Below, one piece after another: positions 44,663 through 52,144 of a stretch of 64,000 bases of DNA. The stretch lies in assembly GCF_009914755.1 (NCBI RefSeq), contig NC_060926.1. The stretch is one strand, 5' to 3'. How positions within the stretch are numbered: the stretch's first letter is position 1; every line of letters begins with the position of its first letter. A model generated the notes under the pieces. It searched no databases, was not told the origin of the DNA, and saw only the letters and a list, made by a program, of their open reading frames with translations. Source of the DNA: the human T2T-CHM13v2.0 reference genome, Homo sapiens. The position numbers and the translations under genes are program-made.

Positions 44663-44791
44663 TATTTTATTTTATTTTATTTTTTTCTTATGTTGGACTG
44701 GTAACAGGCAGACCTTACCAGGTTTGAGAAAGGCTCATCCCACACATGAGTGTGAAAATCCAATCATCATGCTTATGAACTGCAAACAGAT
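44663..44791 (-). pseudogene. U13 snoRNA (SNORD13) retrocopy
   Basis: Minus strand ATCTGTTTGCAGTTCATAAGCATGATGATTGGATTTTCACACTCATGTGTG..TTACCAGTCCAACA plus an A-rich tail. TSD ctttgttatt at 44657-44666 and 44796-44805. Confidence 0.85.
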
Positions 44792-48181: not shown

Positions 48182-48310
48182 ATTGCTTCTACCCAAGATC
48201 AAGGGTAGTATCTGTGCTTATTATGTAATATCTGACACATCCACTTCCTGAGAACAAAATAATAAGTGGGTTTTAGGAGCAGAAGAACAGTGCTCCAGGT
48301 AACTGATGAC
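48182..48310 (+). pseudogene. Second, decayed U2 snRNA copy with internal deletions
   Basis: ATTGCTTCT..AAGATCAAGGGTAGTATCTGTGCTTAT..TAATATCTGACACATCC..GAGAACAA..TGGGTTTTAGGAGCAG..CAGTGCTCCAGG follows U2 order, with part of stem I and most of stem III missing. Confidence 0.75.
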
Positions 48311-48539
48311 TCCAGTATGGCTCTATCCCTCATGCCCTCCGTTTTAATATGAAACCTGCCTTTTTCCCTTTTATTTATTTATTTATTTTTTACTTTTATT
48401 TTTTGAGGCGGAGTCTCCCTTTGTCACCCTGGCTGGAGTGCAGTGGTGGATCTCTGCTCACTGCACCCTCTGCCTCCAGGGCTTAAGTGTTTCTCCTGCC
48501 TCAGCCTCCGGTGTAACTGGGATTACAGGCCGGGTGTAA

Positions 48540-49082
<543 letters not shown>

Positions 49083-49918
49083 TAATTTCTGTATTTTTAG
49101 TAGAGACAGGGTTTCACCATGTTGGCCAGGCTAGTCTCAAACGCCTGACCTCAGGCGATCTGCCCGACTCGGCCTCCCAAAGTGCTGGGATTACAGGCGT
49201 GAGCCACCACGCCCGGCCTCCTTTTTATCTTTGTTATTTTTTGAGACAGGGTCTTGCTTTGTCATCCAGGCTGGAGTGCAGTGGCACAATCATGGCTCCT
49301 TGACCTCCTGGATTCATGCGATCCTCCCACTTCAGCTTCTTGGGTAGCTGGGACTACAGGCATGAGCCACCATGCCTAGCTAATTAAAAACATTTTTTTT
49401 TTGGTAGAGTGCCAGGTGCAGTGGCTCATACCTGTAATCCCAGCACTTTGGGGTTGGGGGTGAGGATCGCTTGATCCCAAAGCCCAAATCCCAGGAGTCT
49501 GAGACTAGTCTGGGTAACGCGGGGGAAACACCCCTCTCTACCAAACAAAAACAAAAACCATATATACATATGAAAACAAAAAAATACACACTAGCCCGTT
49601 GTTATGGCACGTGTCTGCTGAGAGGCTGATGTGGATGTTCGAACCCAGGAGTCCAAAGATGCAGTGAGTAAGCCAGGATCGCACTATCTCAAAAGACTGA
49701 GTCTCGCCATATTTGCTCAGGCTGATCTTGAACTCGTGGGCTCAAGCCATTTTCTTTCAAAAAGAGCTGGGATTGCGTGTGTCAGCCACCTCGTTTTGGA
49801 AAATTTAATCAAAGTTGTAGACCCCTGTTTCTTAAACTGCTAGCATACCTGTTTTTTCTTTTTTAGCCATATTGCTGTGAAGTTGGAAACAACCTTCTGA
49901 TGTTTCCAAAATTACAAA

Positions 49919-49932
49919 CCTGTTTTTGTCAC
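49919..49932 (-). terminator. snRNA 3'-box-like element GTGACAAAAACAGG
   Basis: Resembles GTTT-N-AAAAACAGA-type 3' boxes and lies just past the end of U2 homology. Confidence 0.45.
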
Positions 49933-49938
49933 TAATGG

Positions 49939-50093
49939 CGATGCGTAGACTAGATAGAGTAAACTCTTACTCCAACTCCCAGTTCCAAAACTGCGTTTAA
50001 TATAGCGTTCATCAAACAGGAGAACATACCAGATATTAAACTGATAAGAACACACACTACACTCAATCATTAACCAAACAGCAAAAAAGAGAT
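49939..50093 (-). ncRNA. RNU2-63P: Diverged U2 snRNA variant or pseudogene with its own snRNA promoter
   Basis: Minus strand ATCTCTTTTTTGCTGTTTGGTTAATGATTGAGTGTAGTGTGTGTTCTTATCAGTTTAATATCTGGTA...ACGCATCG aligns to U2 nt 1 to about 152. No poly(A) tail or TSD seen. The symbol is from recall of the KRCC1 neighbourhood and is tentative. Confidence 0.85.
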
Positions 50094-50134
50094 ACCAGTT
50101 ACACGGGGCCTCCCACGTCCTCCCTTCTTTCATC

Positions 50135-50153
50135 CACCTTAAGGTCACGGTGA
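50135..50153 (-). promoter_or_regulatory. snRNA proximal sequence element (PSE) TCACCGTGACCTTAAGGTG
   Basis: Starts exactly 60 nt upstream of the U2-like +1 (50093). Same spacing and similar sequence to the human U2 PSE (TCACCGCGACTTGAATGTG), including the GATGA that follows. Confidence 0.85.
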
Positions 50154-50269
50154 GAAACCTCACCTTCGGTAAACATCTCACCTGCTTTCTGATGTAAATA
50201 TTATATTGAAAACATAGGCCCTTTGAGACATTTTGTCCGCTCCTTGACTCTTAGTGACTCGAGCTTTGT

Positions 50270-51010
50270 CGCCCCTTTTCCTTGGTCGCGAGGGCCGTTC
50301 ATTTGCATGTCCCACCCGCTCTGCGCCCGGGAGGCGTGGCCACCAAGGGACCGGGCCCTGCACAGCGCCCTGGGGAAGCTGGTTTGAAAGCTCTGGAGCG
50401 ACCCCAATGCCGGGTAAAGGACAAGATTTGCCCAGACGGAAGGGAATTTGGGGTGAAGTGGCCGTAAAAGTGTGGGACGAAACTGTTTCGGGCAGAGCGG
50501 TGGGAACTCACCTGAGGAAAGCATGGGGGAGGAGTCACTAATAAGAATGAGTGGCAGGGACAGGGCGGCCTTGCAACGCCCTCGGTGTTGGAAGGGAAGA
50601 CCGTACAGCGCGATGGGGACCAGGGCGGCGGGCCGCAGCCAGGGTGTGGGTGGGCGACGGTCAAGGTGCCTTGAAGCGGATTCTGTCCTCGGGAGCTGCG
50701 GTTCTTCCTCCTCCGCCCTCACCGGCGGGCGACCTTAGGCAGGGCGTGAAATGCAACGGGAGCCCTGGAGGGAGGGTGAAGCCGCGCGTGCAGGAGGAAC
50801 CTCCTTTTGGCGAGTTCAGGCCCCGCAGCTGCGGAGGTAGGGGACCCTGTGTGGCAGCCTGCTGAGAGGCTGCGTGCTCCGCGCGGTTGGAGGGGGGAAC
50901 CTCCAGCCCACCTCCTCTTTTTCAGCCGAGAAACCGCTAGTTACCCCCTTTCTTATGCGACCAAGATTGTAATAACCCTGTCACCTTTCACGGCCCTCCG
51001 GGTCTGCGCC
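50270..51010. promoter_or_regulatory. CpG island / GC-rich promoter region
   Basis: Dense CpG and high GC in non-repeat sequence. Strong minus-strand splice donors after 50512 (cag|gtgagt) and 50182 (cag|gtgaga). Confidence 0.75.
50301..50319 (-). promoter_or_regulatory. snRNA distal sequence element: Sp1-type GT box plus octamer ATGCAAAT
   Basis: Minus strand GCGGGTGGGACATGCAAAT, with the octamer at -215 to -208 from the U2-like start. Confidence 0.8.
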
Positions 51011-51532
51011 CATCCTCCTCTGAGGATTCGCTCATCCACCCCGAGGCCTGTTTTCCTCACTTGTTGTCCCTCTGGCAGACCCTAGGCCCCTTGGAGTCCA
51101 GCCACCATCTATCTGCCCGCTGTTTCCACCCACCACACTCCCTCCCCAGTTCTATCCCAGCTCTTTAAACGGTTGGAGTTCAAACCTCAGACCATGACAG
51201 CACACGGGCCTGGACTCCGGTATGGCCCTGGACAAGTTCCTTAATCTCTCTGAGCCTCAGCTTTGTTCCGTGTGAAGCAGCGGTAACATTGTTATTAGAA
51301 GCCTCCCGGCCCCAGCACACCGACGTACATATAAGTGGATATCCATCCTGCCTGTGAGGGGTCGTCTTTTCTTTGGGTTGTTTGTTGTCCACAGAGGTCC
51401 ATACTTTATGTTCCTGGAGGCACCAGCGGAGTCACTGATGCACCCCTGCATCCAGCATGTTTAAGGAAGACAGTCTGGGGAGGGCAGGGAAGAGCCTAGA
51501 GGGTCCCCTAATGATTAGGGCTGTGATGGGGA

Positions 51533-52144
51533 TGTTACTGGAAAAGGGTCCCTATCCAGACCCCAAGAGAGGGTTCTTGGACCTCCTGCAAGAAGGAATT
51601 TGGGGCAAGTCCATAAAGTGAAAGCAAGCTTATTAAGAAAGTAAAGGAATAAAAGAATGGTTACTCCATAGGCAGAGCAGCGGCATGAGCTGCTCGACTG
51701 ACTATACTTACAGTTATTTCTTGATCATCTGCTAAACAAAGGGTGGATTATTCATGAGTTTTCCGGGAAAGCCAATTCCTGCAACTGAGGGTTCCTCCCC
51801 TTTTTAGACACTATAGGGTAACTTCCTGATGTTGCCATGGCATTTGTAGACTGTCACGGCAGTGGCAGGAGTGTCATTTAGCATGGAAATGCATTATAAT
51901 TAGCATAGAATGAGCAGTGAGGATGACCAGAGGTCACTTTCATCACCATCTTGGTTTTGGCCAGCTCCTTTACTGCATCCTGTTTTATCAGCAAGGTCTT
52001 TGTGACCTGTATCTTGTGCGGACTTTCTATCTCATCCTGACTTAGAATGCCTAAGCTAGTGGGAATGCAGCCTCGCAGCTCTCAGCCTTATTTTACCCAG
52101 CGCCTATTCAAGATGGAATCGCTCTAGTTCGATCGCCTCTGACA
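51533..52144 (-). mobile_element. MER41-family ERV1 solo LTR with a GAS motif
   Basis: Minus-strand start TGTCAGAGGCG..GAACTAGAGCGATTCCATCTTGAATAGG and end AAGAACCCTCTCTTGGGGTCTGGAT. TTCCGGGAA at 51761-51769. Confidence 0.75.

What the first reader, a model, noticed from the sequence alone, without database searches (positions are those of the whole stretch)
49919..50319. Diverged U2 variant with a complete Pol II snRNA promoter: a gene-like locus, not a retrocopy
Seen: PSE at exactly -60, GT box plus ATGCAAAT at about -210, a 3'-box-like motif, no A-tail or TSD, and an adjacent CpG island. Established: PSE (SNAPc) plus DSE (Oct-1/Sp1) plus 3' box (Integrator) define transcribed U1/U2-type genes, and retrocopies lack them. 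Inference: the locus is probably bound by SNAPc and transcribed even though the RNA body is far from canonical U2.
Basis: partly seen in the sequence, partly recalled or inferred. Interest (0 to 1): 0.8.

Follow-up and report, generated by a model that had tools for sequence, protein, structure and literature searches.

The report
Transcribed, diverged U2 gene copy RNU2-63P
This is an old DNA-level copy of the human U2 spliceosomal RNA gene that has kept a working-looking promoter but lost the RNA's last hairpin and its end-processing signal, and its transcription and instability have already been published.

Summary
The U2-like body (49936-50093, minus strand; Rfam U2 68.2 bits) sits behind a real snRNA-type promoter. 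TCACC starts at -60 and the block matches the RNU2-1 PSE at 22 of 26 bases in the same register. ATGCAAAT lies at -215 behind GGGTGGG and a GGCCACGCC block, all alignable to the RNU2-1 enhancer. Homology to RNU2-1 is limited to these two islands and the RNA body; the spacer is at shuffle level. Thirty-six other U2 copies show only background upstream similarity. It is therefore a DNA-level paralogue, not a retrocopy. No target-site duplication or abutting A-tail is present, and a CpG island covers the promoter.

The "3'-box-like motif" does not hold up: the best match is 9 of 11, reached by 299 of 1000 shuffles. Stem-loop IV is missing entirely.

U2-63/RNU2-63P carries Pol II, H3K27ac and H3K4me3 and is expressed at 0.1-1% of U2 (Kosmyna 2020). 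It is the least stable U2 variant yet enters snRNPs and spliceosomes (Mabin 2021). It is repressed through NEXT (Ma 2025) and was called "gene-like" (medRxiv 2026).

Verdict: already known, with modest added anatomy.

The parts
49936..50093 (-). U2-like RNA body (RNU2-63P): stem-loops I, IIa, IIb and III and a deviant Sm site are present; stem-loop IV is absent.
   Evidence: Rfam U2 scores 68.2 bits over model positions 1-192, with the 36 inner positions of stem-loop IV skipped. The body is 108/146 identical to RNU2-1 over model positions 1-147, and 28/33 stem pairs are standard.
50093..50093 (-). Predicted transcription start (A).
   Evidence: The PSE-to-start register is the same as in RNU2-1 (both blocks at -62). 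It is also the first base of the Rfam match.
50130..50153 (-). Proximal sequence element (PSE), with TCACC starting at -60.
   Evidence: Single hit in the window against 0.01 expected. 22/26 identical to the RNU2-1 PSE block in register. The wider block -75..-36 is 30/41 identical, above all 300 shuffles.
50094..50129 (-). Core promoter interval from the PSE to the start, with no TATA box.
   Evidence: Sequence of -40..-1 printed. It shows no residual homology to RNU2-1 (0.54 against shuffle 0.54).
50301..50344 (-). Distal sequence element: GGTGGCCACGCC block (50333-50344), GGGTGGG GT box (50311-50317) and octamer ATGCAAAT (50301-50308, -215 to -208).
   Evidence: Aligns to the RNU2-1 enhancer, 36/58 identical, above all 300 shuffles. 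RNU2-1's octamer is at -221.
50100..50950 (.). CpG island covering the promoter and the first exons of the divergent lncRNA LOC105374852 (starts at 50185/50201 on the + strand according to the hub table).
   Evidence: GC 0.49-0.69 and CpG observed/expected 0.6-0.9 in 200-nt windows. lncRNA coordinates come from the hub annotation supplied with the finding.
49883..49909 (-). Hairpin in the 3' flank (+185..+211), not homologous to stem-loop IV. It is a speculative substitute 3' hairpin if the RNA runs past the annotated end.
   Evidence: Inverted repeat I2. It folds in the centroid structure at -10 kcal/mol, but the z-score is only -0.6. Its loop has no similarity to RNU2-1's stem-loop IV loop.
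49844..49927 (-). Two copies of a 13-nt A-rich motif (49915-49927 and 49844-49856).
   Evidence: Direct repeat D2, 92% identical. Neither copy is among the top matches to the recalled 3'-box consensus, whose best score (9/11) is at chance level.

Best explanation
RNU2-63P is an old DNA-level paralogue of the RNU2-1 gene, not a retrocopy. It has kept the two promoter elements that recruit SNAPc (PSE at -60) and Oct-1/Sp1-type activators (octamer plus GT box at about -215).

Pol II therefore starts at 50093 and makes a U2-like RNA about 26% diverged from canonical U2. That RNA keeps stem-loops I-III but has:
- a changed branch-point recognition sequence (GUAGUA to GUAGUG);
- a deviant Sm site (AGUUUUGG where RNU2-1 has AUUUUUGG);
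- no stem-loop IV;
- no recognisable 3' box downstream.

The most likely consequence is poor Integrator-dependent 3' end formation and poor snRNP assembly. Most transcripts would then be removed by nuclear surveillance, and only a small fraction would reach snRNPs and spliceosomes.

Shown here: the anatomy and the paralogy. Shown in print: transcription, instability, NEXT dependence and low-level snRNP and spliceosome incorporation. Inferred: SNAPc, Oct-1 and Sp1 binding at this locus, and the causal link from the missing stem-loop IV and 3' box to instability.
For: - Rfam U2 at 68.2 bits, with stem-loop IV skipped.
- PSE 22/26 identical to RNU2-1 in register, and an octamer at -215.
- Homology to RNU2-1 is confined to the PSE block (30/41) and the DSE block (36/58), both above all 300 shuffles. 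The spacer (0.48 against 0.50), -35..-1 and far upstream are at shuffle level.
- Among the 48 best U2 hits in the genome, 36 have only background upstream similarity.
- Genome-wide, the U2-type PSE pattern at 0-2 mismatches lies next to a U2 body only at the 9 array units, chr3 (L020), chr17 (L012) and this window.
- No TSD. CpG island present.
- No stem-loop IV-like stretch within 2 kb downstream.
- The 3' flank is not alignable to the RNU2-1 or RNU2-2 flanks, and the best 3'-box match of 9/11 is reached by 299/1000 shuffles.

Print (passages read):
- Kosmyna et al. 2020, bioRxiv 10.1101/2020.01.24.917260: U2-63 is enriched for Pol II, H3K27ac and H3K4me3, makes up 0.1-1% of U2 in most tissues, and falls on PRMT5/MEP50 knock-down.
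- Mabin et al. 2021, PMC8457000: U2-63P is the least stable U2 variant but among the most abundant. It is found in snRNPs and spliceosomes and has one branch-point-sequence change. A stable 3' stem-loop determines snRNA half-life.
- PMC11027413: read-through at RNU2-63P after RBM22 or SPT5 loss.
- Ma et al. 2025, bioRxiv 10.1101/2025.11.21.689835: the rise of U2 variants in SNRNP200/PRPF8 eCLIP after NEXT depletion is mostly due to RNU2-63P.
Against: - SNAPc, POU2F1 or Integrator occupancy at this exact locus is not stated in any text I could read.
- The Kosmyna text says stem-loop IV is highly conserved in all four transcribed U2 variants. That does not fit this sequence, and I could not see their figure.
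- The true 3' end of the RNA is not known to me. If it lies beyond 49936, the "no 3' hairpin" argument weakens, since a hairpin exists at 49883-49909.
- Stem pairs are kept better than random placement of the same substitutions would give (28/33 against 23.4±2.0, P about 0.02). A 37-bp variant-depleted stretch is also reported (PMC13640761). Both hint at more RNA-level constraint than a mere decaying by-product would show.
Confidence: 0.85

Rival explanations
1. It is a selectively maintained, functional variant U2 snRNA gene. The RNA, with its altered branch-point recognition sequence, forms a specialised low-abundance U2 snRNP that acts on particular introns or in particular tissues.
For: - 28/33 stem pairs are kept and there are 4 double compensatory changes. 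Random placement of the same substitutions gives 23.4±2.0 pairs (P about 0.02) and 1.7 compensatory pairs (P about 0.06).
- Stem-loop IIa and its flank are 19/20 identical.
- Promoter elements are kept while the spacer decayed.
- In print: a 37-bp variant-depleted region and a "high-confidence gene-like" call (PMC13640761); detection in snRNPs and spliceosomes (PMC8457000); a compensatory-change argument (Kosmyna 2020).
Against: - No stem-loop IV, so the U2A'/U2B'' site is missing. That this hairpin is the binding site is established knowledge, also stated in the Kosmyna text.
- Deviant Sm site and 5' end.
- It is the least stable U2 variant and a NEXT target.
- The covariance-model alignment leans towards pairing, so the P values are optimistic.
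- No cross-species data could be examined here.
Confidence: 0.1
2. The promoter elements are kept for a reason other than the U2-like RNA. The SNAPc/Oct-1/Sp1 sites would be part of a bidirectional CpG-island promoter or enhancer serving the divergent lncRNA LOC105374852 or neighbouring genes. The U2-like transcript would be a tolerated by-product.
For: - The hub table places lncRNA starts at 50185/50201 (+), between the PSE (50130-50153) and the DSE (50301-50344).
- The hub table also lists a RefSeq "enhancer" at 50116-50264 over the same interval.
- The CpG island runs 50100-50950.
- The RNA is unstable in print.
Against: - The conserved blocks are specifically the snRNA-type PSE and DSE, in the RNU2-1 register relative to the U2 start.
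- The RNA body keeps its structure better than chance.
- No evidence seen that the lncRNA depends on these sites.
Confidence: 0.04
3. It is an inert processed pseudogene (retrocopy) that happens to sit next to promoter-like motifs.
For: It is annotated as a pseudogene (hub table). The octamer alone is at chance frequency in the window (5 against 4.8 expected).
Against: - Extended PSE and DSE homology to RNU2-1 in the correct register.
- The PSE pattern is expected 0.01 times per window.
- No TSD or A-tail.
- Published Pol II occupancy and RNA detection.
Confidence: 0.01

Closest known systems
RNU2-1 (canonical U2 gene, tandem array on chr17; loci L001-L010)
   Same: The PSE is in the same register (22/26). 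The DSE has the same order of elements: GGCCACGCC block, GC/GT box, octamer. Neither has a TATA box. The start is at the same distance from the PSE. The RNA shares stem-loops I-III.
   Different: - The body is only 108/146 identical.
- The branch-point sequence ends in G, not A.
- The Sm site is changed.
- Stem-loop IV and the 11/11 3' box at +207 are absent.
- The spacer and flanks are unalignable.
- It is a single copy, not part of an array.
RNU2-2 (formerly RNU2-2P, chr11; locus L005), a reclassified functional U2 gene
   Same: A solitary U2 gene outside the array that was long labelled a pseudogene and is transcribed by Pol II (PMC3499247 passage; PMC13640761 passage).
   Different: The pattern of conservation is the opposite. 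RNU2-2 has a near-canonical body (196.8 bits) and a 10/11 3' box. Its upstream region is not alignable to RNU2-1 (local score 12, PSE block 13/26). RNU2-63P keeps RNU2-1-type promoter blocks but has a diverged, truncated body.
Variant U1 genes (vU1/RNVU1 and transcribed U1 "pseudogenes")
   Same: snRNA gene copies with active promoters whose products are poorly 3' cleaved, have degenerate 3' boxes, and are degraded by the NEXT-exosome (bioRxiv 10.1101/2025.11.21.689835 passages).
   Different: Those are U1 copies clustered on chr1. For U2, the same preprint names RNU2-63P as essentially the only variant contributing.
Processed U2 retro-pseudogenes (e.g. L011, L013-L019, L029-L056)
   Same: They carry U2-derived sequence and the pseudogene label.
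   Different: In those copies homology stops at +1 (PSE block 10-14/26, upstream score 8-12). Many have higher body similarity (85-185 bits) than this locus.

Membership tests
SNAPc-dependent Pol II snRNA gene | PSE about 55-60 bp upstream of the start | tested here: met
   TCACC starts at -60. The block is 22/26 identical to the RNU2-1 PSE in register. The pattern is expected 0.01 times per window.
SNAPc-dependent Pol II snRNA gene | DSE with an octamer (plus Sp1-type box) about 200-220 bp upstream | tested here: met
   ATGCAAAT at -215..-208, GGGTGGG directly upstream, and a GGCCACGCC block. The block aligns to the RNU2-1 DSE at 36/58, above all shuffles.
SNAPc-dependent Pol II snRNA gene | No TATA box between the PSE and the start (Pol II rather than Pol III specificity) | tested here: met
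   The -40..-1 sequence printed has no TATA-like run. The rule itself is stated in the PMC3499247 introduction.
SNAPc-dependent Pol II snRNA gene | 3' box shortly downstream of the mature 3' end | tested here: not met
   The best match is 9/11 to the recalled consensus, reached by 299/1000 shuffles. RNU2-1 scores 11/11 and RNU2-2 scores 10/11. The flank is not alignable to either gene's flank.
SNAPc-dependent Pol II snRNA gene | Occupancy by SNAPc and Pol II; capped transcripts from +1 | not testable with these tools
   Print: Pol II, H3K27ac and H3K4me3 enrichment at U2-63 (Kosmyna 2020), and a Pol II termination assay (PMC11027413). SNAPc at this locus is not named in the texts read. The Table S1 that might show it was closed.
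U2 spliceosomal RNA (Rfam RF00004) | Covariance-model score above the gathering threshold | tested here: met
   68.2 bits against 46. Canonical RNU2-1 scores 197.4.
U2 spliceosomal RNA (Rfam RF00004) | Stem-loops I, IIa, IIb and III | tested here: met
   28/33 pairs are standard: SL I 6/7, IIa 6/6, IIb 5/7, III 11/13. Canonical U2 has 30/33.
U2 spliceosomal RNA (Rfam RF00004) | Branch-point recognition sequence GUAGUA | tested here: not met
   The window has GUAGUG, and the next-but-one base is also changed. Mabin 2021 likewise reports one BPRS change in U2-63P.
U2 spliceosomal RNA (Rfam RF00004) | Canonical Sm site | tested here: inconclusive
   AGUUUUGG where RNU2-1 has AUUUUUGG. Print reports dependence on Sm-assembly factors and presence in snRNPs, so some Sm loading seems to occur.
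U2 spliceosomal RNA (Rfam RF00004) | 3' terminal stem-loop IV (U2A'/U2B'' site) | tested here: not met
   The model's 36 inner positions are skipped. No similar stretch lies within 2 kb downstream: score 15 against shuffled-query mean 16.2, with 148/200 shuffles at least as good.
Processed snRNA retro-pseudogene | Homology to the parent gene confined to the RNA; target-site duplication; often an A-rich 3' end | tested here: not met
   There is promoter-block homology upstream of +1. None of the 5 direct-repeat families brackets the body. No abutting A-run.

The most novel reading that the evidence does not exclude
RNU2-63P is a selectively maintained U2 gene lacking stem-loop IV. Its real transcript would run to about +215 and end in a non-homologous replacement hairpin (49883-49909). 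The resulting particle would carry an altered branch-point recognition sequence and no U2A'/U2B''. That would explain both the better-than-random stem preservation and the published 37-bp variant-depleted stretch.
Probability: 0.08. Interest if true: 0.6.

Novelty: already known. Interest (0 to 1): 0.25.

Why it matters
The RNU2-2 reclassification showed that snRNA "pseudogenes" can be real disease genes, so which U2 copies are live matters for variant interpretation. For this locus the main question, whether it is transcribed and gene-like, has been answered in print since 2020-2021 and was reinforced in 2024-2026.

This check adds a sequence-level reason for both halves of its behaviour:
- It is active because it carries RNU2-1-type PSE and DSE islands inherited at the DNA level.
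- It is unstable because it has no stem-loop IV and no recognisable 3' box.

I did not meet that anatomy in the passages I read. My searches were not designed to exclude it, and supplements were closed.

Tried and rejected
- Retrocopy reading: rejected on flank homology and on the absence of a TSD.
- A real 3' box: rejected as unsupported.
- A displaced stem-loop IV further downstream: none within 2 kb. The 3' flank cannot be aligned to the RNU2-1 or RNU2-2 flanks: scores 15 and 17, against shuffle means 15.9 and 18.1.
- A substitute 3' hairpin at 49883-49909: it folds, but no better than shuffles (z -0.6). Kept only as speculation.
- A local snRNA gene cluster: rejected. The U13 copy at 44691-44791 has an A-rich tail and no PSE. 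The weak U2 hit at 48182-48331 keeps canonical U2 states, not this locus's derived ones.
- Sibling loci sharing the PSE: the chr14 and chr15 pattern hits have no snRNA body. Three-mismatch hits are at control level: 26 hits in all, against 37 for the reversed pattern.
- No close paralogue of the diverged body exists in the genome; the best non-self body hits are 72-80% identical and canonical-like.
- The bacterial-type promoter and terminator scan is irrelevant to a human locus and was ignored.
- Earlier findings of this scan were not open.
- No other vertebrate genome is held, so age and orthology could not be tested.

Full report
**What is there.** On the minus strand, 49936-50093 matches Rfam U2 (RF00004) at 68.2 bits, with a gathering score of 46 and E = 6e-12. 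The match covers model positions 1-192, but the 36 inner positions of stem-loop IV are skipped. Canonical RNU2-1 units in the same genome score 197.4 bits. This is therefore a strongly diverged, 3'-shortened U2 homologue. The hub table names it RNU2-63P.

**The promoter observation.**
- I aligned -330..+330 of the locus with an RNU2-1 array unit (L001), RNU2-2 (L005) and two other U2 copies.
- TCACC starts at -60 from the A at 50093. The 26-nt block is 22/26 identical to the RNU2-1 PSE in exactly the same -62 register.
- ATGCAAAT lies at 50301-50308 (-215 to -208; RNU2-1 has it at -221). It is preceded by GGGTGGG, where RNU2-1 has GGGCGGG, and further upstream by a shared GGCCACGCC block.
- A block-wise test shows that homology to RNU2-1 is confined to two islands. 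The PSE block -75..-36 is 30/41 identical (300 shuffles: 0.48±0.04, maximum 0.60). The DSE block is 36/58 identical (0.49±0.03, maximum 0.60).
- The 130-nt spacer (0.48 against 0.50), -35..-1 (0.54 against 0.54) and the far upstream region (0.53 against 0.50) are at shuffle level.
- No TATA-like run lies between the PSE and the start.
- The octamer by itself is not surprising: 5 in the window against 4.8 expected. The PSE pattern is: 1 hit against 0.01 expected.

**Control with other U2 copies.** The genome search scored 48 of its 155,380 first-look candidates. The window's own locus, at 68 bits, was not among those 48. I fetched flanks for all 48 and scored them.
- Nine RNU2-1 array units have 26/26 at the PSE and an octamer at -221.
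- Two DNA-level copies (L012 on chr17, L020 on chr3) have 24/26 but no intact octamer.
- RNU2-2 has 13/26.
- The remaining 36 have 10-14/26 and upstream local-alignment scores of 8-12. The window scores 21.

Genome-wide, the PSE pattern was written from the window and RNU2-1, so their zero mismatches are by construction. At 0-2 mismatches it hits the window, the nine array units, L020, L012 and two loci with no snRNA body. Three-mismatch hits are no more frequent than for the reversed control pattern.

**Not a retrocopy.** Homology to the parent gene continues upstream of +1. None of the 5 direct-repeat families found brackets the body. No A-run abuts the 3' end. The promoter lies in a CpG island: about 50100-50950, GC 0.49-0.69, CpG observed/expected 0.6-0.9.

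- The 3' flank cannot be aligned to the RNU2-1 or RNU2-2 flanks. Local scores are 15 and 17, against shuffle means of 15.9 and 18.1.
- Against the 3'-box consensus (recalled, not taken from a call), the best match in +131..+330 is 9/11. A score of 9 or more occurs in 299 of 1000 shuffles. RNU2-1 scores 11/11 at +207 and RNU2-2 scores 10/11 at +214.
- The A-rich motif next to the annotated end (49915-49927) recurs at 49844-49856 but is not among the best matches.
- No stem-loop IV-like stretch exists within 2 kb downstream. The score is 15, and 148 of 200 shuffled queries do as well.
- A perfect 9-bp hairpin lies at 49883-49909, but it folds no better than shuffles (z -0.6). It has no homology to stem-loop IV.

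**The RNA body.** Over Rfam positions 1-147 the locus is 108/146 identical to RNU2-1, with 25 transitions and 13 transversions, 12 of them C to U.
- Stem-loop IIa is 19/20 identical.
- The branch-point recognition sequence reads GUAGUG instead of GUAGUA.
- The Sm site reads AGUUUUGG instead of AUUUUUGG.
- Of 33 stem pairs in stem-loops I-III, 28 are standard pairs, against 30 in RNU2-1. Four pairs changed on both sides and still pair.
- Placing the same substitutions at random gives 23.4±2.0 standard pairs (P for 28 or more = 0.02) and 1.7 double changes (P for 4 or more = 0.06).
- The alignment came from a covariance model, which leans towards pairing, so this is modest evidence for past RNA-level constraint.

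**What is already in print (passages read, not whole papers; supplements were closed).**
- Kosmyna, Gupta and Query 2020 (bioRxiv 10.1101/2020.01.24.917260). U2-63 is one of four U2 genes enriched for Pol II, H3K27ac and H3K4me3. It has 42 differences from U2-1, mostly conservative or compensatory. It is detected at about 0.1-1% of U2 in most tissues, drops on PRMT5/MEP50 knock-down, and responds to MYC.
- Mabin et al. 2021 (PMC8457000). U2-63P is the least stable U2 variant yet among the most abundant. It is detected in snRNPs and spliceosomes and has one change in the branch-point sequence. [quoted passage not shown]
- PMC11027413 (2024). RNU2-63P is used as an example gene for Pol II read-through after RBM22 or SPT5 loss.
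- Ma et al. 2025 (bioRxiv 10.1101/2025.11.21.689835). The rise of U2 variants in SNRNP200/PRPF8 eCLIP after NEXT depletion is mostly due to RNU2-63P. Transcribed snRNA pseudogenes in general show defective 3' boxes and poor 3' cleavage.
- PMC13640761 (medRxiv 2026). [quoted passage not shown]
- James Faresse et al. 2012 (PMC3499247). A "U2-like" locus appears among the SNAPc/Pol II-occupied genes. I could not see the table to tell whether it is this one.

**One discrepancy.** The Kosmyna text says stem-loop IV is highly conserved in all four variants. The window sequence has no stem-loop IV. I could not see their figure.

**Most likely mechanism.** An old DNA-level duplicate of a U2 gene kept its PSE and DSE, and the rest of the upstream region decayed.
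- SNAPc and octamer/Sp1-type activators (inferred from the motifs) drive Pol II from 50093. Pol II occupancy and the RNA itself are shown in print.
- The RNA keeps the 5' two-thirds of the U2 fold.
- It lacks the 3' terminal hairpin, and the gene lacks a recognisable 3' box.
- 3' end formation and snRNP maturation are therefore inefficient (inferred).
- Transcripts are short-lived and NEXT-sensitive, with a small fraction reaching spliceosomes (print).

**Rivals.**
- A truly functional specialised U2 variant. Stem preservation and the published variant depletion speak for it. The missing stem-loop IV, deviant Sm site and instability speak against it.
- A promoter kept for the divergent lncRNA or for enhancer activity. 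In the hub table the lncRNA starts at 50185/50201 and a RefSeq enhancer at 50116-50264 lie between the PSE and the DSE.
- An inert retrocopy, which is rejected.

**Verdict.** The finding is already known. The added value here is the paralogy-island anatomy of the promoter and the explicit absence of stem-loop IV and a 3' box.

Noticed in passing
window 50346-52104 and beyond; loci L022-L025 (chr9): A segmental duplication starts at window 50346, two bases upstream of the conserved GGTGGCCACGCC block of the U2 enhancer (-253). Four pericentromeric chr9 copies match 50346 to at least 52104 at about 94% identity. They then continue into an interspersed repeat instead of the U2 promoter. The copies therefore carry the distal CpG island but none of the snRNA gene. 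The far end of the duplication was not mapped.
   Followed up: partly
window 48182-48331 (+): A second, much weaker U2-derived element (Rfam U2 37.4 bits, below the gathering score) lies 1.6 kb away in convergent orientation. It keeps canonical U2 states where RNU2-63P has derived ones, has part of stem-loop I missing, and has no PSE in register. It looks like an unrelated old U2 pseudogene.
   Followed up: partly
window 44691-44791 (-): The annotated U13 snoRNA copy (Rfam snoU13 63.8 bits) is followed directly by an A-rich tail with AAAAT repeats and has no PSE-like upstream sequence, so it looks like a retrocopy. The genome search returned 50 scored U13-like hits, all with higher scores.
   Followed up: partly
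L020 (chr3:73152507) and L012 (chr17:44237191): Two further U2 copies carry long RNU2-1-type upstream flanks (upstream scores 226 and 125, PSE 24/26). Both have lost the intact octamer: L020 reads ATGCAAAC, and L012's homology ends before the enhancer. The much more diverged RNU2-63P keeps both elements.
   Followed up: partly
L005 (chr11, RNU2-2): RNU2-2 shows the reverse pattern to RNU2-63P. Its body is near-canonical (196.8 bits) and its 3' box is good (10/11). Its upstream region is not alignable to RNU2-1 (score 12, PSE block 13/26).
   Followed up: no
window 50116-50264 and 50185-50413 (+): According to the hub table, a RefSeq "enhancer" and the first exons of the lncRNA LOC105374852 start inside the snRNA promoter, between the PSE and the DSE. 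The promoter may therefore be bidirectional. This was not tested here.
   Followed up: no
bioRxiv 10.1101/2020.01.24.917260, section 8: The text states that stem-loop IV is highly conserved in all four transcribed U2 variants, including U2-63. The window sequence has no stem-loop IV. The same preprint mentions another highly divergent transcribed U2 (U2-R30/U2-RFAM30), whose location I did not find.
   Followed up: partly
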